A stretch of DNA of 64,000 nucleotides, taken from positions 66,216,001 to 66,280,000 of the forward strand of contig OX597821.1 in the NCBI GenBank assembly GCA_951406725.2. The letters are read 5' to 3'. Of this stretch, positions 483 through 61,124 are shown piece by piece. The notes below the pieces were generated by a model. That model was given only the letters and a program-made list of their open reading frames with translations, was not told the DNA's origin and ran no database searches. The position numbers and the translations under genes are program-made. How positions within the stretch are numbered: the first letter of the stretch is position 1; the number at the start of each line of letters is the position of its first letter. The DNA comes from Octopus vulgaris. Lineage: Eukaryota.

Positions 483-716
483 GTATGTATATATGTATGT
501 ATGGATGAATGGATGAATGTACGTATGTATGTATGTATACACACGATGGTATGAGTCTTTGTGTTTGCCCCCCCCTCCCACCATCGCTTGACAACCGATG
601 TTGGTGTGTTTATGTCGCCAAAACTTAACGGTTCGACAAAATAGATCGATAGAATAAGTACTAAGGCTTACAAAGAATAAGTCCTGGGGTCGATTTCTTC
701 GACAAAAAGGCGGTGA
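345..716 (+). mobile_element. tRNA-derived SINE family A, degenerate copy with internal (TA)n/(TATG)n
   Basis: Matches the family body seen at 21518 (GGCAAATGTCTTCTGCTATAGCCTC...GGAAACTGAAAGAAACCC...CTTGACAACCGATG...GATAGAATAAGTACT...GGGGTCGATTT...AAGGCGGTG). Confidence 0.8.
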
Positions 717-8405: not shown

Positions 8406-11359
8406 TGGATGGATGGATGGATGGATGGATGGATGGATGGATGGATGGATGGATGACAGACAGACAGACAGACAGACAGATAGATACATAGATAGATAGA
8501 TAGATAGATAGATATAGGTAAATAGATAGCTAGATATAGATAGATAGATATTGACAGACAGATAGATAGACAGACAGACAGACAGAAAGGTAGGTATGTA
8601 GGTAGGTAAGATAGTGGAAGTCAATATGATCACACTTGGACGAAATCTTTACGTTAACAGCAACTGACAGATTGATAACATAAAGCAAATAAGTTGTTTA
8701 GGATCCACCAATTTCGATAACTATAACCGACTGATTGATCAGTTAAGCAGCGTCCACTGTATGTGTATATATGAACATGTGTGTGTGTGTGTGTGTGCGC
8801 TTGTATATATGTATGTGTGTTAGTGTGAGATGTATGGAATATGCATTTATTGATGGTATATGATTGATTGATTGATTCTAGTTTCAGCTTATGAGCTGTG
8901 GCCATGTATGTGTTAGTATGTGCGTGAAAACGTGTGTATAATTGTGTGTATGATATACCTCTGTGCGGAAGATGCATACGTGTCTATGTATGTATATATA
9001 TATATATATGTGTGTCTGTGTGTGTAATTATGCGCGTGCTTATGTGTGTGTTATGGTAATGCGATGGCATGTGCGTGTGTATGTGTATAACAATTACAGG
9101 TTTAGATGTGTATACGAAATAGCATGTTTATACAATTTGCTACACACACACACACACACACACAGGCGAGTGTATAAAAATATATCTATCTGTTGATAGA
9201 TTCCGTATATAATTGTTGCATTTTACTCTCTTTGACTTTCTCCGTAACACACAAGCATGCATACACATTCATTCATATATATACTCGTATGTGTGTGTGT
9301 GTGTGTGTGTGCGTGTGTGTGTGTGTGTTCTTTTTAGTTACCAGTCAAATCCCGACCGAGCAAAATATACGATGCAAGGCTTGCCAACCACGACAATCTC
9401 GTTTTGTTTTTCTCTCGTCCCCACCATCGAGCCCTACGAGACTGAATTCGTCTAGGACCTCATTAATCTACATTTTCATTAGCTAAGAAATACTACGTTC
9501 GATTTGAGGGACATTTAGCTGTTACGTCTTGCCTGTCGCGCCACTAAACTGAAGTTCCTTCGTTGGCGCGCATAAGACAAGATCTTGGGCTTGTGAAGCA
9601 TTGGTGTTTCGCCCCAGGTAAACTCTGATAGAGTAGATTTTTATTCGGAAGCATTCCATAATTGAGTATAACCTGTGTCCTTCATTTTATTACAAAAAAA
9701 AAAAAAAAATGAGGGAGTTTTGGCTGTTATTCCTAGCAGCTCGAGCGACTGACTAGAGACTAATCTAATTGTATACAAATGTTTATATACATGCTAGCAT
9801 GATATACATACGCACACACTATTCCTAGGCATCTGTCTGTAAAGTAATTTCACATGAAAATGTAAACGTTTTTGTATTACGATACGCAAAATATCAACAC
9901 ATACATAATTAATTACACATTTGTTGTGTGTGAGTGTATAATAATAGATCTGTCCGTGTGCGTGTGTGTGTGTGCGCGTATGTGAAAAGTATGTTATACA
10001 TTTGTGAACAATAGCGTCGTTAATTACAGATTCTCATCGGACTAGTGCCAAATAACAAGGGATTCGCCGTAAGGAATATATTCGGGTAGAATAAGCACCA
10101 GAAGGTAATTTTCGTCAGATACTACAAATTTTTCGACAATTTCTTGCCGATGTGAATATCTTTGGCCAAGACACACACACACACACACACTCTGGGCTTT
10201 TTATGTTGTGTTCGTCTACCGAATTTATTTCCCTACACACTGAAGGCAATAAAGGCTGTAGCATGGTGTCGCGCTCTCGAATCGAACCTGGAACCACGTA
10301 ACTGCAAAAGAAACTTCTTGCTCGCACAACCGTACTAGTGCCGCAGGCAGAGTTCATATGGTTATGGAATATCAAGTAATGTTATCGCATGTTATAACAT
10401 AGTTTACAGACTCAGATAATTACTGCTAGTTAGGTCGAGCCTTAGACGAAATTCCTCGGGTTTAGTAAAATTCATAGAGGCCCATAAAAATAGTAAAACG
10501 AATGGAACCAGCAATATACCTTCCTAGATCCTACTGAATGTGTGATATTGTGTCGCAGCGTCGGGGAAAAAAATGTCTTGTGATATGAAGTTATGGTTGC
10601 TTATGTTTTGTGCTCAAGTAAGGACGATTTTGCCTTTCGTGGGGTGGGGTCGATAAAATAAAATACTAAATCAAGGACGTGGGTCGGTCTAATGTGCAAA
10701 CATCCAGTACGTCCAGCTAAATTTCTGACCTTGAGCCTGAATTATAAAAAAGAATTAGGGTAGTGGTTTGGCTGAAGCGCTTGTGCGTCGGACAAAATAC
10801 TTTGCGATGCTACTTCCAGCAGCTCATTACGCTCGGTGTTCAAATCCCACCGCGGCCAACTTACCTTTTGACATCAATAAAATTCAGTTCCTGGCAAGAA
10901 CTGAGTTCCGAGGTATCAACTAACTCCCTACTCTCGAAATAACTCGAGCCTTAAATATCTAAAGAAGTCACAGCCACTGTTATTATTTACTATCACCACT
11001 TCGTCGCCGAAAACTGTGCATTTTGGATTCCTGGTAAATAAACTTCATTCTTTGTCCTCCAGGACTGTCCTAAGTGCCAAATGTGGACTCTGTGTGTTGT
11101 AAAAGCAGAAGTTCCTATTCTGCTTGTAAGCTCTGCTTCCTGACAATTTAATACCCTTTACTCAGTTCGCTTGCTACCCCAATTTTTACCCCTCAACATA
11201 TATAATAATAACAAGAAAACAATTTCTTGTATACTACAAAATTTCTTGCATAGCATTAACAGCCTTTTACCTAACAATAAGCAACCTTAAAATTGAAGAA
11301 AGGAGAGAAGAAAGCGAGCAAAAAAAAAAAAAAGAAAAACTATATGAAAATAATAGAAA

Positions 11360-22457: not shown

Positions 22458-22968
22458 CTAGCAGTATCGCCCGGCGTTGCTCGGGTTTGTAAGGGAAATA
22501 ACTATATAAGCATTTTTAGAGAGTTACTTCCCTTATAGATGCCAATTCGGGCTTTCTTAGCCATTTCTGTTTTGGTGACTTCAAACCATGAAGTCGTTCT
22601 AAAAGAACGTTGGTCTCCTTGACAACGCATTACGACGTTGATTTCCTTACACTCCCTTCCCCACAGCTTCACGAGGGAGGGAAGAAGGGGGAGAAGCAAA
22701 CAGGTGCAGGTGTGACCATGGACGCCAATTCCGCCGCCATCGACACACGAAAAACTATGCATTAAAATGGAATAAAAAAATGATGTTAAATTATTTTTAA
22801 AATCGTAGACTCATTGTAGACGCGCGCTAATACTCAGACGGGCTCGATATGAATCACGACTATAAGATACCCGAATTTGGTTAAACTGCACCGCAAAATG
22901 TGGGAGTAGTTAGGAATCTAAATCGAAGGGGACAGACACTCACACAACTACAGTTTTATATATATAGA
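22458..22968 (-). mobile_element. Non-autonomous Helitron (511 bp)
   Basis: The minus strand begins A|TCTATATATATAAAA and ends with hairpin CCCGAGCAACGCCGGG, 8 nt, then CTAG|T. These are canonical TC...CTRR termini in an A|T target with no TSD. Confidence 0.85.
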
Positions 22969-25724: not shown

Positions 25725-26193
<469 letters not shown>

Positions 26194-26338
26194 TATGTAT
26201 ATATATTTTTATGTATTGAAGCAGTCCGTTCGAAAATATAAAAGACAACTTTTAGGAACAATAGTGGATTATTGACGCAGAAGGTTGCGAACTTTTCCCG
26301 TATCGAAGTAAGCTGAAAAAAGCTTATTTTATAGTTCA

Positions 26339-39536: not shown

Positions 39537-40558
39537 TATTATTGCTTGCAGAGATATATCCAGGTGTAGGTGGTCTATCTGTAATTTGTTGGAGATATTC
39601 ACCCAGGAACCGTTCGATTAAATTTGAGAGCATTTTCTTCTCTTGAGTGTCTTGGTACGATGTTTAAGAGGGCAGAGTTAAGCTATGTTGTCCAGGGCGC
39701 ATTATAATAAGAGAAAAACATTTCTGGCAAAGAGATAAGTTGGTATTTGAATTATTTCAAGTTGTAATAGTATTAGTATGAGGCATTGTAAGAAAGTGCC
39801 ACTGAATTCACCATTTATTGGTGATTCCCTACCTCTCTTGGCGGATGATGTCTTTGCCCCACGCAAACGAGAACCCTCCAACATATGGGTCTGCTTTGGG
39901 TACTTGTTACTGGCGAGAGATTTACGAGGTCGGACTGCAAATCCTACTTCAACCTCTTGTAGTCGCCTTTTACGACACACAGAGGAAACGATAGTTCTAT
40001 TCTTTCACACGAAAGCAACCTGAAGTAAAGTGTTATGCTCATAAACAAAAACAACACTCGGCTCGGGAATCGAAACCACAATCTTACGATGGTGAGACCA
40101 GCTACCTTAACAACTAGACCATGCTCCTTTACATTTTCTCAATGAAGAACCATAAACTTCAAAACTTAACTGGGTACTTTGAAGAAAATGCCAGTTTATA
40201 TTACACCATATCCCAACAAGAATGTGAATCTTGTCATTTTGCAAAATGCGTGAAAGACTAACTCAGAGATAATGATATCAAACAATTTGGTGAATGCCTA
40301 GTGCCATATCCTGACCTGAGCTCTAGACAAATTACTGTCTTTTACACTTTTATTCCTTTACTGGATTTAGTTAGTAGGCTGAGGACATTCTATCAAATCG
40401 ACTCCAGTATTTACTTTATAAAAGTTTTATACGTATCAGACTCTTTTGGCGAACAGCTAGGTTACAGGGACGTAAACAAACAGACAAACACCAGTCATCA
40501 AAGCATGAGAATACAATCACATACATACTTCAGAAGGAAACGTGTGCATATCATATAC

Positions 40559-43467: not shown

Positions 43468-45272
43468 ACTACGTATATTTCCTATTTAGTAATTTGGATA
43501 TTTCCTTTATGAGGACGTACTCCTGTATTTGTTTGAGTGTTGGGTCCTTTGGGTGCTTGGATAAAATGTGGATGTCAAGTTGATCCAGGTTGCCTCAATG
43601 TCGGTCCTTGGCATTTTGGTAGAGTATGCAGGACTGTTTTTTGTCGTCATATTGTCTCAAATTTTCATTTAGTCGTTCCGCAATGCTCCTAGATGTTTGT
43701 CCCATGTATGTCATGTTTTTGTCGTTACAAACACCTTCTATGTACCTTATACTGTAGACTACATTTCTAGTTCTACAATTAATGTCAAGGTTAATCCTAA
43801 ACACTATGCTGTTATCATTGATGCTTATGGTATTCTCAAAGGGGTACGTCCTACATAGTTGTGATCTGATGGCATTCCCTGGCTTTTCAACGATCTTAAT
43901 GTTGAGTTTGGTCCCCTTCAGAGCTTTCCCAAATCTACGGGCTAGTTCTCTATGGGCTGTGGCCTCTACAAACATCACTCCTTGATATTTGTTGGCTTTA
44001 TACCACGTGTTCACTCTGTTTGCTTTTTCACAAGCTCTTTGTATTCTATTCCAGTCTTTACTTCTATATCTAGGACAAGTACCACTGGTTTCATTACCTA
44101 CAATGTTATCTAACTTCTTTCTAGCACACCTGTATACTGGAACCCCATCTTTCTGATCGTATCCAGAGAACTGCATGCCTGCATGAAGTTCTGTACATAC
44201 ATCTTCGTTTCATAGGTTTTGCATAGTGGGGACAAGTTGTTCATTATCCTAACTAAGTCTGCTATCAGTATGTTAATTTTCATGTTGTGTGACAAAGCTG
44301 GGTTCTTGTCAACAACATATTTCGAAACTATGGGTTTCATGTAATAGGAGTGGAGGAGCTGCAATCTGTTGTTCAGTCTCTAACCAAAGTTCAGTATCAA
44401 GGACGGGGAGTCTATTGTTGGGTTGCCTAGTGGGATCATCTATAGTTACCTTGATACTTTGGTGGATGGAGTTGGCTACTTGCTGAATGCTCTCCATTAT
44501 TTTCCTCTCGGTTTCTACATTACCGTACTAGATTTGGTCTTAACTAGGATATTAATGTCATCTACATTCCTACTGCAAAGTAAAAGAGTTGTGGACTGTT
44601 CTGCTAAGGATTGTTTAAGTTTTCTGTCCAACCAGGTCATGAAGAGGTTGGCCACATCTCCAGCTACACCGACACCAATGGCTGCACCTTGATCTTTCAT
44701 GTATAGTTTCTCGTTAAACTTTAAGAATGGTTCTTCAAGGTGGTTCTTACACTAGTCCCTATTGCATGTGCAATCATTCCTTTCATTTGATTGTTGTTCT
44801 CAGGATCTTGGGTGGGTAAGGTCCAGCGAATCCAGCGATCTGTGGTGCTTTTCTTCCCTGCCGAGGTGATGGTGGGTGGTTTTCCCCTCTGTGACCTAGA
44901 GGGGCAGAATCTACTGAGGTCATGGCCGTCTAAATAGTCACTGTCGTAGCTTAGTCTAAGGAGGATGTCCAGTTCCCTAGTATGGACTTCATGGAACTCG
45001 ACTTCACTCTCACAAATTATCCCAATGCATTTCTCCACAGCAAAATCTATGTCTATAGATGAGTAGAATGAAATCCCATCCATACTACTCACTACACAAC
45101 CTGTGAGGTCGTTGGAGTGGTTGCAAGTACTGATTCTACTGAGGAGATACTCCTTGCTCAATCAGACATCCGGGGACATGTCTATGAGAGGTCGAAATAC
45201 CAATGAGAGTTCGTAATACCAACGACCTAACAGGTTGTGTAGTGAGTAGTATGGATGTAATTTCACTCTACC
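43468..45272 (-). mobile_element. Decayed Penelope-like element (RT + GIY-YIG endonuclease), 5'-truncated with an inverted segment
   Basis: Frameshifted ORFs: SMDGISFYSSI (RT motif A region), QGAAIGVGVAGDVANLFM.WLD...RNVDDI (motifs B/C), LPVLDTELW, then CRTRNVVYSI...YMGQTSRSIAERLNE (GIY-YIG) and DPTLKQIQE...LN. 45219-45272 is an inverted copy of 45062-45115. Confidence 0.9.
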
Positions 45273-49494: not shown

Positions 49495-49913
49495 CTTTTA
49501 TTCTTTCATTCGTTTCAGTCATTTGACTGTGGCCATGCTGGAGCACCGCCTTTAGCCGAGCAAATCGAACACAGGACTTATTCTTTGTAAGCCTAGTACT
49601 TATCCTATCGGTCTCTTTTGCCGGACCGCTAAGTGACGGGGACGTAAACACACCAGCATCGGTTGTCAAGCGATGCTGGGGGGGGGGGGATGCAGACACA
49701 CAAACACATACACACACACACACACACACGTATATATATAGATACATATATACGACGGGATTCTTTCAGTTTCCGTCTACCAAATCGACTCACAAGGCTT
49801 TGGTCGGCCCGAGGCCATAGTAGAAGACACTTGCCCAAGGTGCCACGCAGTGGGACTGAACCCAGAACCATGTGGTTGGTAAGCAAGCTACCTACCATTG
49901 CCACTCCTTCGTC
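49495..49913 (-). mobile_element. SINE family A, full length
   Basis: The head on the minus strand is GACGAAGGAGTGGC (consensus GGCGCAGGAGTGGC). Body and tail are complete. Confidence 0.92.
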
Positions 49914-49920
49914 TTGTGAC

Positions 49921-50031
49921 GCTTACAGCACCTAGGTTTCCCAAGCGGTCACCTATCTAAGTACTAACTAGGTTCGACATTGCTTAACTTCGGTGATCAG
50001 ACGAGAACTGGTGCTTTCAATGGTCGTAAGC
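49921..50031 (-). pseudogene. 5S rRNA pseudogene (about 7-nt deletion in the 5' part, no oligo-T terminator)
   Basis: Minus strand GCTTACGACCA-TTGAAAGCACCAGTTCTCGTCTGATCACCGAAGTTAAGC...TTAGTACTTAGATAGGTGACCGCTTGGGAAACCTAGGTGCTGTAAGC matches the metazoan 5S pattern. Terminal helix GCTTAC/GTAAGC; box A is intact and box C is altered. Confidence 0.92.
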
Positions 50032-50374: not shown

Positions 50375-50895
50375 CATACATACATATATATATATATTCA
50401 CATACACATATATGGTGGGCTTCCACGCAGTTTCTGTCCACAAGTTTCACTAACAAGGCATTGGTCAGCCAGAGTCTGTAGAACACACTTGCCCAATGTT
50501 TGAACCCGAAGTCACGTGGTTTGCAAAACTAGCTTCTTAACCATACAGCTCTTTTCTGTGTGCGCCTACAGCGACTCTTATTTTGTACTTGCTTCAACCA
50601 CTGAACTGAAACCATTCTTTTGGTAAGATCAGCCGTAGTGGATATATAATACTGAACACTTATAACTTCGCTTTGAAAAGGAATTATATTCATTCTTCTC
50701 TCAAGAATTATTCCCTCTCTATTTCCGTAATATTTAGTTTTATTACTGTTAGAAACAGCTCCTTTATCCTAGATTCTAATTTAAAGTCAGAAGTCTGAGC
50801 AATTTTAAATGTAAAAATGTTCATATATATCAATTACTTATTTTGGCACCGCCTTCAAGAATTTTTGGTGGAATAAATCGACTCCAGTATCTGTT

Positions 50896-50969
50896 GTCTC
50901 TGTGGCGCAATCGGTTAGCGCGTTGGGCTGTTAACCGAAAGGTTGGTGGTTCGAGCCCACCCAGAGACG
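50896..50969 (+). tRNA. tRNA-Asn(GTT) gene or very young tRNA-derived retrocopy
   Basis: GTCTCTGTGGCGCAATCGGTTAGCGCGTTGGGCTGTTAACCGAAAGGTTGGTGGTTCGAGCCCACCCAGAGACG has a perfect acceptor stem and A/B boxes, anticodon GTT at 50930-50932, one G:G mismatch in the anticodon stem (50925), and TTTT at 50977-50980. Confidence 0.9.
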
Positions 50970-51497
50970 CAAGTCGTTTTAAATGGTGGTGCCCCAGCAT
51001 GGCCACAGCTCGTGAGCTGAAACTACATGAATATATATATATATATCTTCACTCCTGGTGCTGTATGAACATTTAATGTGGTTTTAGAGTCAAGTTTTAG
51101 CTGCTATTTCCAGCGTGGTGGTATGTCTTAGATATCCTAAATTATAATCTTAATAATAGTTATTACCCTTGAAGGTTTTTATTCCCATGCTGGCCACTTA
51201 ATAAGATCGATATTTAGATTAACGATCTTATCCTTATATAAATATATATATATATATATCGTTGCTACTATGTTAAAACTGACGTATGTAAAATGCGATT
51301 TTTTTTCAATATTTATTTTTGCTTGCACTAGACGGTCCTTTTGGTCAAAGTTATCGTGTCTCCAGCTACTTCAGATGCCAGGAAATCAAAAGTTGTCAGT
51401 GTAGTACAACGGTTTCACTATGGAATTGTGAAGCTATTTGTTTGTTTTCCGAAAAAAGCAACGTTTTGGACTTAAAGACGCTTTTGCATAATACCAA

Positions 51498-52325
51498 CGT
51501 GGACAATTTATCAAATTTCCGCTAGTGGACAGTTGATCGAGTTTACACCAGTAGACAGTTGATCGAATTTTCGCTAGTGGACAATTGGTCGAATTTACAC
51601 CAGTGGACAGTTGATCGAATTTGCTCAAGTACACAGTTGATCGAATATATACCAGTGGACAGTTGATCGTATTTGCGCTAGTGGACAGTTGATCGAATTT
51701 TCGCTAGTGGACAGTTGATCGAATTTCCGCTAGTGGAAGGTTGATCGAATTTTCGCTAGTGGACAGTTGATCGAATTTACACCAGTGGACAGTTGATCAA
51801 ATTTTCGCTAGTGGACAGTTGATCGAATTTTCGCTAGTAGACAGTTGATCGTATTTACACCAGTGGACAGTTGATCGAATTGTCTCTAGTGCACAGTTGA
51901 TCGAATTTACACCAGTGGACAGTTGATCGAATTTCCGCTAGTGGGCAGTTGATCGAATTTTCGCTAGTGGAGGGTTGATCGAATTTGCACCAGTGGATAG
52001 TTGATCGAATTTTCGCTAGTGGACAGTTGATCGGATTTTCGCTAGTGGACAGTAGATCGAATTTTCGCAAGTAGATCGAATTTTCGCAGTTGATCGAATT
52101 TTCGCTAGCGGACAGTGTAACGAATTTACACCAGTGGGCAGTTGATCAAATTTACAACAGTGGACAGTTGATGGAATTTACACCAGTGGACAGTAGATCG
52201 AATTTCCGCTAGTGGGCAGTTGATCAAATTTTCGCTAGTGGACAGTTGATCGAATTTTCTGTAGTGGAGAGTTGATCGAATTTACACCAGTGGACAGTTG
52301 ATCGAATTTCCGCTAGTGGACAGTT
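51498..52325 (+). repeat. 26-bp minisatellite, about 30 units, two alternating variants
   Basis: AGTGGACAGTTGATCGAATTT followed by ACACC or (T/C)CGCT. Confidence 0.95.
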
Positions 52326-54970: not shown

Positions 54971-56964
54971 TGGAGTTATACAATAATGGTCTTAAGTCGT
55001 TGGTCTCGGTGTTAGTGTGTTTGCGTCCCCGTAACTTAGCTGTTCGGCAAAATTTACCGATAGAATAAGTACCATACTTTAAAAAAAACATAAGTACGGG
55101 GATCGATTTATTCGACTAAAAATTCAAGGTTGTGCCCCAGCATGGCCGTAGTCTAATGGCTGAAACAAGCAAAAGATAAAACTGAATCAACCACATCCAC
55201 CTCTAATTGCATCAACGATGGAGCTTCTATCGTGGTCATTCAACGTGCTGGAAATAATACAACACATTTTTCTTTGAGCTGACTCTGAAGTCTTTAAGAA
55301 AAGAGAAAGAAGTCACAACTGGAATAGCTTTGATCATAGGTTTGATTAGTGAACATTGCTGACCTGGGGCGAAAACTTTAATAACTCTAATATTTGTTTT
55401 TCTACTTCTAAATTCCACTTCATTTCTTCTCTCCACATCTAAATTCAGATTTAATACGGATAATCTCTCTACGATTGAAAGTAAAAAAAAATAGAAAAGT
55501 TGATTTAGAAAATGAAAACAATTGACTCAAAATTACTATGGATTTCACTAAAAACCGAAAAATAAATAAAATAAATTGTATTTATTGATCGATGGTTCCA
55601 GAACAAAAGAAGGCAACCGATAACTCTGTCATGCAATACATCCATGGATTTGATTGATGTTTAGAGAAATATTGGTAGCATCGAGGGAATTAACACATGA
55701 ATCCTGGTCAGAATCGATGAGTTTCATTTATTTAGTTGTTGTTATTATAAGTTTTATCATTTTTTTTTTTCATTTTTTTTTTTTCAGAAAAACTGAAATC
55801 AATATAGAATCAAGCCCGCTAGAATATCGATTCCTTACCGCGTAACTATTTATTTTTGTAAATCATTACTTGATTTTGTTTTAATTTCTAAGTCCGAGAA
55901 GGCGGTTCCAGTAGCATTTAATATCCCTTGTACGCAAACCATGTGCGTAGATTATTACATTCACACATGGCTAAACTACATTGTATGACGCAGCGTTATA
56001 TTTCCTGAACGTGCGTTATTAATGAGTCAACGAAGTAACATCTACGGCATTCTTTGAACGGCTAGAAATAGTAGTTAAATTTCCCTCAAACACACATTAT
56101 TGAGGCTGTTATTGTATTAATTCTTTTGAATTCTAAATGAGGTTAAAGACCCCCTTCGGTCATGAATGATTATAAGATTACACCTAGAGTGTTGCCCTCC
56201 GGAGTTTAATTCCGAATAAGGTTGTTCATGGAGGACAAGTAGTCACCCATGCCTCTCCTCTCTACGTCACCGATGTTATCCAAGGGAAAGGCAAAGGCCG
56301 ATACAGCTTGGCACCAGTGACGTCGCAACTCATTTCGACAGCTCTGTGAAATAAAGTGCCTTGCTCAAGAACACAACACAGTTCCAGATAGGTCCTGATT
56401 AAAAAAGGTCAACATACTACATGGATTGCCATGGTAATCCAACCTTTTTTTTTTCAAGCCATGTGGGAGTACTTAATATTATGTTATTCAGTTGTATATG
56501 TAAATAGTATGCGAAGTCGCATAGCTTAGTGGCTAGAGTGTTGGACTCACAATCGCTAGATCACGGGTTCGATTCCCGGATCGGACTTGGCGGTGTGTTG
56601 TTCTTGAGCAAAACACTTCATTTCACGCTATTGCAGTCCACTCAGAAGTAACGGAATGGCTTTTTCATCAGTGAGAAATGATGATGATGATGAGCACTAA
56701 TGTCATCGTCCTCTCGCCTATCCTTCTTGGTATCAATACCACCACCACCACCACCACCTGTTTATCTTGATATAAGATCACCATGTCACGTACACATGGT
56801 TGTGATGCATATGCCTTGTTAAAAGGATACTCTAGATCATTTCCAAAGGTACCGGGAAAAAATTCCGCCAGAACGGAGAAATTCTAACTTATGTGGGCCA
56901 CTCATCGTTGGTGGGTATAATGAGCTTCGTATATTTTACCCTAGTGTCATTATTATTATTATTA

Positions 56965-60566: not shown

Positions 60567-60995
60567 CCACTCACAAGGCTTTGGTCGGCCCGAGGCTATA
60601 GTAGAAGACACTTGCCCAAGGTGCCACGCATCCACATAGTTCCGGGTTCAGTCCCACTGCGTGGCACCTTGGCCAACTGTCTTTTACTATAGCCTCGGGC
60701 CAACCAAAGTCTTGTGAGTGGATTTGGTAGATTGAAACTGAAAGAAGCCCGTCGTATATATGTATATATATATGTGTGTGTGTTTGTGTGTATGTTGGTG
60801 TGTCTGTGTTTGTCCCTCCAAATCGCTTGGCAACCGATGCTGGTGTGTTTACGCCTCCGTAACGTAGCGGTTCGGCAAAATAGTCCGATAGAATAAGTAC
60901 TAGGCTTACAAAGAATAAGTCCTGGGGTCGATTTGCTCGACTAAAGGCGGTGCTCCAGCATGGCTACAGTGAAATGACTGAAACAAGTAAAAAAA
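60567..60995 (+). mobile_element. SINE family A with an inverted 5' duplication
   Basis: 60567-60630 is the reverse complement of 60658-60721. The plus-strand body continues to the tail. Confidence 0.85.
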
Positions 60996-61124
60996 TGTAT
61001 TCTTTTACTTGTTTCGGTCATTTGACTGTGGCCATGCTGAAGCACCACCTTTAATCAAACAAGATTCTTACCACATACCCAAACCTGCGCCTTTATGTAT
61101 TTGTAATACATATATGTATATACA

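What the first reader, a model, noticed from the sequence alone, without database searches (positions are those of the whole stretch)
50845..51030. Almost perfect tRNA-Asn joined directly to the SINE A 3' tail: a minimal, nascent SINE?
Seen: about 15 nt after the tRNA comes GGTGGTGCCCCAGCATGGCCACAGCTCGTGAGCTGAAAC, matching the family A tail (GGCGGTGCTCCAGCATGGCCGCAGTCAAATGACTGAAAC). Immediately upstream is an inverted tail fragment of another copy (GGCACCGCCTT...AAATCGACTCCAGTA), so the tRNA lacks a normal unique 5' flank. The anticodon stem has a G:G mismatch. Inference: a body-less SINE (intact tRNA plus LINE-recognition tail) that would inflate tRNA-Asn gene counts. Caveat: a TTTT between tRNA and tail could terminate Pol III.
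Basis: partly seen in the sequence, partly recalled or inferred. Interest (0 to 1): 0.7.

Follow-up and report, generated by a model that had tools for sequence, protein, structure and literature searches.

The report
tRNA copy fused to retrotransposon tail
A nearly intact asparagine tRNA sequence sits 15 bases in front of a retrotransposon tail; it is likely a one-off hybrid copy, made when a reverse transcriptase switched from the tail RNA to a tRNA precursor (a known kind of event), and whether it has multiplied into a new SINE family is untested.

Summary
The layout is real. A tRNA-Asn(GTT) at 50896-50969 (63 bits, one G:G pair in the anticodon stem) is followed by a 7-nt trailer, TTTT, 4 nt and a two-hairpin retroposon tail. 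An inverted 45-nt SINE fragment lies 6 nt upstream. One correction: the tail is not family A's. It matches 21/24 bases of the first half but 7/15 of the second, and belongs to a sister subtype with compensatory pairs. That subtype's only other copy in the window (8906) is a bare, truncated tail.

Most likely (about 0.42) this is a single chimeric retrocopy of a pre-tRNA joined to a tail by template switching, like platypus U6-L2 and human tRNA-L1 chimeras. A 5S pseudogene joined to a SINE 860 nt away looks like a second such junction. Rivals are a multi-copy tRNA-plus-tail SINE family (0.27; no second copy in 64 kb, TTTT in the way, but the subtype's source element is unknown) and a tail inserted later behind a tRNA gene (0.25).

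The parts
50845..50889 (-). Inverted fragment of a SINE body end plus the first 9 nt of the tail (longer-linker subtype), cut off at both ends
   Evidence: nhmmer 22.7 bits, E 8e-6, reversed control best 5.5 bits; 35/45 aligned to the copy at 55095-55136
50890..50895 (.). 6-nt spacer: either pre-tRNA leader or decayed continuation of the inverted fragment; unassigned
   Evidence: sequence; profile hits end at 50889-50892
50896..50969 (+). tRNA-Asn(GTT), full length, no encoded CCA, conserved D- and T-loop (A/B box) positions, G:G mismatch at 50925:50937
50970..50980 (+). 7-nt 3' trailer followed by TTTT (50977-50980), a minimal Pol III terminator
   Evidence: TTTT within 12 nt of a random position: 5.6%; no clear match to any family A body end
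50981..50984 (+). 4-nt linker (AAAT); could be the 5' edge of the tail, a micro target-site duplication or untemplated bases
50985..51025 (+). Retroposon 3' tail, subtype 'C': hairpin 1 (50985-51004) shared with family A, hairpin 2 (51006-51019) with compensatory changes
51031..51046 (+). (AT)8 run right after the tail, the kind of site this family is enriched in
   Evidence: 7 of 21 tails, this one included, against 9.5% background
8879..8906 (-). Only other subtype C tail in the window: 28 nt, 5'-truncated, no head, body or tRNA
49504..50031 (-). Parallel junction: full-length 5S rRNA pseudogene (50031-49920) joined after about 6 nt to a full-length family A SINE, with TA-rich runs on both outer sides

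Best explanation
The locus is an intact-looking tRNA-Asn with its own trailer and TTTT, joined in the same orientation to a 5'-truncated retroposon tail, and it likely arose in one retrotransposition event. Inferred mechanism: a LINE reverse transcriptase bound the two-hairpin tail of a subtype C RNA, primed at an AT-rich target, copied about 45 nt, then switched template onto the oligo-U end of a pre-tRNA-Asn that still had its trailer, and copied it to or just past the mature 5' end. The inverted SINE fragment is likely older DNA at the target, though capture in the same event by twin priming is not excluded. The copy later acquired the G:G mismatch. It is predicted to be a pseudogene whose transcripts, if any, mostly stop at the TTTT, so it would seed few or no further copies. 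Shown: the parts, their order, orientation and significance. Inferred: the single event, the template switch, the order of events, and inactivity.
For: (1) Order and orientation are those of known template-switch chimeras: small Pol III RNA 5', short stringent-type tail 3', same strand (PMC4476161 section 10; PMC13174262 passages). (2) The trailer plus TTTT at +8 looks like a pre-tRNA 3' end (5.6% by chance); pre-tRNA retropseudogenes are mentioned in PMC4476161. (3) Both Pol III RNA copies that Rfam finds in the window (2 of 2) have a same-strand element of this tail family starting within 15 nt of their 3' end. Under uniform placement each has probability 5e-4 to 4e-3, and neither gap contains the microsatellite seen in the 3 tandem SINE pairs. 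(4) The tRNA has repeat DNA 6 nt upstream instead of a unique 5' flank and a broken anticodon-stem pair. (5) The tRNA (1 broken stem pair) and the tail (26/28 to its sister copy) both look young, which fits arrival together. (6) A body-less head-plus-tail copy at 61049 shows that jumps or deletions fusing distant parts occur in this family.
Against: No target-site duplication brackets tRNA plus tail, though none of 7 full-length family A copies has a clean one, so the test is weak. The flank pattern fits a tail-only insertion at least as well: AAAT on the left and (AT)8 on the right of the tail, while the tRNA's left flank is not TA-rich. Family copies start within 100 nt behind one another about ten times more often than uniform placement predicts (3 of 20 against 0.31), so the chance figures are too low, and the tRNA junction was picked after the fact. 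Human tRNA-L1 chimeras are mostly antisense half-tRNAs, and platypus U6-L2 chimeras mostly have 5'-truncated U6; a full-length sense copy is atypical. No partner LINE was found.
Confidence: 0.42

Rival explanations
1. The locus is one copy of a multi-copy minimal SINE (near-perfect tRNA-Asn head, trailer, subtype C tail, about 130 nt) that amplifies through read-through of the TTTT.
For: The tail is a distinct subtype with two compensatory pair changes in hairpin 2, seen 0 of 2 times with a family A body, so its source element is unknown. Both subtype C copies are very short, whereas only 2 of the 19 other tails lack a body (49451, 61049), which suits a short source element. T4 ended 75% of transcripts in human cells, so about a quarter read through (PMC5725217 section 6). 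A family would also be met in a random window more often than a one-off.
Against: No second tRNA-Asn or second junction in 64 kb. The other subtype C copy has no tRNA, although being truncated it says little. A terminator between head and tail is costly to a SINE master. No description was found in the paper searches.
Confidence: 0.27
2. Sequential insertion: a genomic tRNA-Asn gene or duplicate with its native trailer and terminator was there first. A 5'-truncated subtype C tail later inserted into the AT run behind the terminator, and a SINE fragment lies upstream by a separate event.
For: Trailer and TTTT look native. Removing the tail leaves TTTT-AAAT-(AT)n, a site type this family prefers (7 of 21 against 9.5%, p 0.002), with a possible 3-nt duplication. 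Bare tails insert on their own (8906, 49451). Copies cluster. Part of the 1081-nt region is held in runs of two other organism labels at shares 0.33 and 0.24, so the region is not private to one sample; which part they hold is unknown.
Against: It needs two independent repeat events within 6 nt upstream and 15 nt downstream of a 74-nt gene. It does not explain the parallel 5S-SINE junction. The G:G pair and the lost 5' flank argue against a maintained gene.
Confidence: 0.25
3. The partner LINE machinery targets the 3' ends of Pol III genes, so the tail and the 5S-adjacent SINE are targeted insertions.
For: 2 of 2 Pol III RNA copies in the window have a same-strand element right behind them.
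Against: 19 of the 21 tail copies are not behind a tRNA or 5S sequence; the 5S copy is decayed and has no terminator; the family's visible preference is for TA runs.
Confidence: 0.06

Closest known systems
U6-L2 and U6-Mon-1 chimeras of platypus, U6-RTE and U6-AnolisSINE2 chimeras of lizard (Doucet et al. 2015, PMC4476161; passages and section 10 read)
   Same: Pol III small RNA joined in sense to a short 3' piece of a stringent-type LINE or its SINE; small or no target-site duplication; attributed to template switching; proposed as the route by which tRNA sequences gain LINE tails.
   Different: Here the RNA is a full-length tRNA with trailer and TTTT (the platypus U6 parts are nearly all 5'-truncated); the host is probably an invertebrate; no duplication and no partner LINE were identified.
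tRNA/LINE-1 chimeras in human (Law and Burns 2026, PMC13174262; abstract and passages read)
   Same: tRNA sequence at the 5' end of a truncated retroelement 3' end; 21 human loci reported.
   Different: Those are mostly half tRNAs in antisense with 9-19 bp duplications, ascribed to twin priming. This one is full length, sense, without a clear duplication, and has a hairpin tail rather than poly(A).
Simple head-plus-tail SINEs such as rodent ID and B1 (as described in Kojima 2018, PMC5786205; introduction read)
   Same: Head and tail without a body.
   Different: Those are high-copy families. Kojima uses high copy number with identical structure to tell retrotransposition units from chimeric copies, and that is what is missing here. 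This copy also keeps a terminator between head and tail.
Octopus tRNA-derived SINEs OK, OR1, OR2 (Ohshima and Okada 1994; seen only as citations in PMC4758252 and PMC4824008) and the tRNA-Core and tRNA-Deu SINE expansion of octopuses (PMC8967140; passages read)
   Same: The window's family A is a tRNA-headed SINE with body and structured tail in a SINE-rich genome. That the repeats look octopus-like is my recall, not a tool result.
   Different: Those have bodies and diverged heads.

Membership tests
Small-RNA/retroelement chimeric retrocopy (template-switch type) | Pol III RNA 5' of a retroelement 3' end, same orientation | tested here: met
Small-RNA/retroelement chimeric retrocopy (template-switch type) | Retroelement part 5'-truncated with an intact 3' end | tested here: met
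   Both hairpins and the end motif present, no body
Small-RNA/retroelement chimeric retrocopy (template-switch type) | Target-site duplication around both parts | tested here: inconclusive
   None around tRNA plus tail. A 9-nt TA-type match (50823-50831 and 51039-51047) brackets the larger block that includes the inverted piece. 0 of 7 full-length family A copies have a clean duplication; 2 of 7 have only TA-run matches.
Small-RNA/retroelement chimeric retrocopy (template-switch type) | Both parts arrive together (empty orthologous site in a relative) | not testable with these tools
   No genome held; no orthologous sequence obtained
SINE2, simple head-plus-tail type | tRNA-derived head with internal Pol III promoter | tested here: met
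   Full tRNA model match with conserved D- and T-loop positions; transcription itself not tested
SINE2, simple head-plus-tail type | Structured 3' tail shared with a partner LINE | tested here: inconclusive
   Two-hairpin fold identical to family A's, with 2 compensatory pairs that represent one divergence event; no LINE carrying the tail found in the window
SINE2, simple head-plus-tail type | Many interspersed copies with the same head-tail junction and unrelated flanks | tested here: inconclusive
   One copy in 64 kb; genome-wide count not possible; the viral, metagenome and prokaryote collections gave 0 hits for the tail motifs and are not expected to hold this genome
SINE2, simple head-plus-tail type | No Pol III terminator between head and tail | tested here: not met
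   TTTT at 50977-50980; leaky in human cells (75% termination)
Family A SINE of this window | Family A tail sequence | tested here: not met
   21/24 then 7/15; family A copies 13-15/15 in the last part
Functional tRNA-Asn gene | Cloverleaf with fully paired stems | tested here: not met
   One G:G pair in the middle of the anticodon stem; other stems pair
Functional tRNA-Asn gene | Oligo-T terminator shortly after the gene | tested here: met
   TTTT at +8
Functional tRNA-Asn gene | Conserved syntenic locus and expression | not testable with these tools
   No orthologous sequence or small-RNA reads obtained
Octopus OK, OR1, OR2 SINEs | Sequence match to the published consensus | not testable with these tools
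   Consensus sequences not found in the papers or the one supplement searched

The most novel reading that the evidence does not exclude
Subtype C tails are carried by an undescribed, very young minimal SINE made of an almost unmutated pre-tRNA-Asn (gene, trailer and leaky TTTT) fused to a LINE-recognition tail. It would be a SINE caught at birth, still scoring as a real tRNA gene, inflating tRNA-Asn counts and showing directly that template switching onto a pre-tRNA founds SINE families.
Probability: 0.27. Interest if true: 0.6.

Novelty: new member of a known kind. Interest (0 to 1): 0.33.

Why it matters
As a single chimera it is a tidy example of the step long proposed for SINE birth (a tRNA gains a stringent LINE tail by template switching), here with the precursor's trailer and terminator still readable. 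It adds a host and an RNA type but no new mechanism. If it proves multi-copy, it would allow a direct test of how a tRNA gene becomes a SINE (which changes come first: the terminator, the anticodon stem) and would mean tRNA gene counts in this genome need repeat filtering. The neighbouring 5S-SINE junction suggests such chimeras may be common enough in this genome to count.

Tried and rejected
No whole genome is held, so no genome-wide count. Tail motifs gave 0 matches in viral contigs, metagenome contigs (21, 23) and prokaryote genomes (24); these collections are not expected to hold this animal, so the blanks are not evidence. Earlier-findings look-ups by sequence, place and words found nothing on this locus or family; one search returned only prokaryotic tRNA-island reports. 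Rejected: the tail as a decayed family A tail (second hairpin differs systematically and is shared with 8906). Rejected as main reading: a simple twin-priming inversion of one SINE with the tRNA at the joint, because the inverted piece and the tail are of different subtypes. Rejected: the inverted piece as the continuation of the old SINE head at 50420-50570 or of DNA right of the tail (no collinear match). The linker has no clear match to family A body ends (2-5 of 14 identical); its 12/13 match at 22591 lies in an unrelated context (E 4.9). My first hand-drawn pairing for hairpin 1 differed from the predicted fold and is superseded. Six candidate ORFs gave no Pfam hit above cut-off; no LINE ending in this tail was found. 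The sigma-70 scan is irrelevant to a eukaryote. The sub-threshold Rfam scan of 1-50800 showed microsatellite noise and no further tRNA among the 150 of 201 rows displayed. PMC4795812 was not held. Most of the output was cut from view; only its tail and upstream blocks are used.

Full report
Observation. The window is repeat-rich, apparently non-coding animal DNA: 13,271 bases are short-period tandem repeats and 14,058 bases fall in interspersed self-matches. A Penelope-like GIY-YIG remnant has eukaryotic look-alikes only as a lead. That the repeats look octopus-like is my recall; no call names the organism. ARAGORN finds one tRNA in the window, tRNA-Asn(GTT) at 50896-50970. Rfam finds two families at gathering score: this tRNA (63.2 bits) and a 5S rRNA copy at 50031-49920 (72.3 bits). 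The tRNA has one non-standard stem pair, G50925:G50937, in the anticodon stem. It has no encoded CCA. It is followed by a 7-nt trailer, TTTT at 50977-50980, AAAT, and the tail from 50985.

The tail. A profile built from 14 family A and A-like tails finds 21 copies in the window and none in the reversed window. The test copy scores 19.6 bits but only over positions 1-24 of 48. Against the majority of 8 family A copies it matches 21/24 and then 7/15, while those copies match 13-15/15 in the last part. It matches the copy at 8906-8879 at 26/28, and a search for that second half finds these two places only, against 0 in 100 shuffles. The test tail and a family A tail fold into the same two hairpins. 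On the 18-row alignment, two pairs of hairpin 2 change on both sides in both subtype C copies; this is one divergence event seen twice, and the structure was taken from these sequences, so it is supportive only. I read it as a sister tail subtype that keeps the fold, as expected of a LINE-recognition tail (PMC4824008 passages, describe such compensatory changes in bivalve SINE tails). The LINE that owns it was not found. The other subtype C copy is a bare 28-nt tail with no head, body or tRNA.

The 5' side. 50889-50845 on the minus strand is a SINE body end plus 9 nt of tail (22.7 bits, E 8e-6; control 5.5 bits), of the longer-linker subtype. It is cut at both ends. Similar tail-less body copies occur at 583-715 and 40390-40502, so such truncation is not special to this site. 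Six bases separate it from the tRNA.

Is the adjacency chance? With uniform placement, a same-strand start within 20 nt has probability 5e-4 (3 other body-less tails) to 4e-3 (all 20 other elements). Placement is not uniform: 3 of 20 elements start within 100 nt behind another copy, against 0.31 expected (5' starts read by hand), and 7 of 21 tails are followed by a TA run against 9.5% background. The true figure is therefore perhaps ten times higher, and the junction was selected after the fact. But the window's only other Pol III RNA copy shows the same arrangement: the full-length 5S pseudogene is followed after about 6 nt by a full-length family A SINE on the same strand, with TA-rich runs outside both ends. 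Neither junction contains the microsatellite spacer seen in the three tandem SINE pairs. Target-site duplications do not decide the matter: none brackets tRNA plus tail, and 0 of 7 full-length family A copies has a clean one. A 9-nt TA-type match brackets the larger block from 50832 to 51047, which leaves a three-part single event possible.

Mechanism. I favour one retrotransposition with a template switch from a subtype C tail RNA to a pre-tRNA-Asn carrying its trailer and oligo-U (0.42). This explains the orientation, the short tail, the native-looking trailer (TTTT that close arises 5.6% of the time by chance), the lack of a unique 5' flank and the parallel 5S junction. It is inferred, not shown. 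Against it, the AAAT and (AT)8 on either side of the tail fit a later tail-only insertion behind a tRNA gene (0.25), and known tRNA and U6 chimeras are usually truncated. But there is no second copy in 64 kb, and the terminator is in the wrong place for a master element. Targeting of Pol III gene ends is a minor rival (0.06).

Outside evidence. No genome is held. The run index lists the 1081-nt region 50420-51500 in runs of organism A (up to 0.60 of words; possibly the source sample) and of organisms B (0.33) and C (0.24). The tRNA-plus-tail unit is about 12% of that stretch, so those shares need flanking DNA as well.

Comparison with what is known. It works like the small-RNA/LINE-or-SINE chimeras of Doucet et al. 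(PMC4476161; passages and section 10) and the tRNA/L1 chimeras of Law and Burns (PMC13174262; abstract and passages). Membership is met on order, orientation and truncation, inconclusive on duplications and untestable on joint arrival. It fails the SINE test on the terminator and is unproven on copy number; Kojima 2018 (PMC5786205; introduction and passages) uses copy number to separate SINEs from chimeric copies. I found no description of a tRNA-Asn-plus-tail element in cephalopods in the searches (searches covered chimeras in general). The library lacks most subscription papers, including Ohshima and Okada 1994, and repeat databases and the supplements of octopus genome papers were not seen; any of these may hold the subtype C consensus. 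Also read in passages: PMC4758252, PMC8967140, PMC6279123; supplement search only: PMC5804259.

Verdict. A real but probably ordinary structure: a new member of a known kind, interest 0.33. The one result that would raise it is a genome-wide count of the junction.

Noticed in passing
window 50031-49504 (-): Full-length 5S rRNA pseudogene (72 bits, 7-nt deletion near the 5' end, no T-run terminator) joined after about 6 nt to a full-length family A SINE, with TA-rich runs outside both ends: a candidate 5S-SINE chimera or 5S-headed dimer.
   Followed up: partly
window 61092-61002 (-): Body-less family A copy: about 30 nt of head fused to the tail, apparently by internal deletion; it faces the tail of the copy at 60946 (+).
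   Followed up: partly
window 8906-8879 (-): Bare 28-nt subtype C tail followed by (ATCA)n; the source element of this subtype is unknown.
   Followed up: partly
window 2359, 49453, 61092 (all -): Three family copies start 49-71 nt behind another same-strand copy, each gap holding a TA or TAA run; tenfold more than uniform placement predicts.
   Followed up: yes
window 583-715 (+) and 40390-40502 (-): SINE bodies that lack the tail; the first breaks within a few bases of where the inverted piece at 50845 breaks.
   Followed up: no
window 50832-50844: On the minus strand the 10 nt after the break of the inverted piece resemble the A-rich body segment just upstream of that piece; also an 11-nt inverted match between 50815-50825 and 51064-51074 (E 2.3). 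Both may be chance.
   Followed up: no
window 51499-52325: Tandem array of a 26-bp unit with 52- and 78-bp higher-order periods, 450 nt downstream of the tail.
   Followed up: no
window 43598-44209 (-): 204-aa open frame resembling the GIY-YIG region of Penelope-like elements (Atlas feature hits 0.95-0.97, GIY-YIG on 18-27% of members of two clusters; no Pfam hit above cut-off).
   Followed up: partly
window 25858-26200 (+): Family A copy with an internal deletion in the head, inserted in a long (TA)n run.
   Followed up: no
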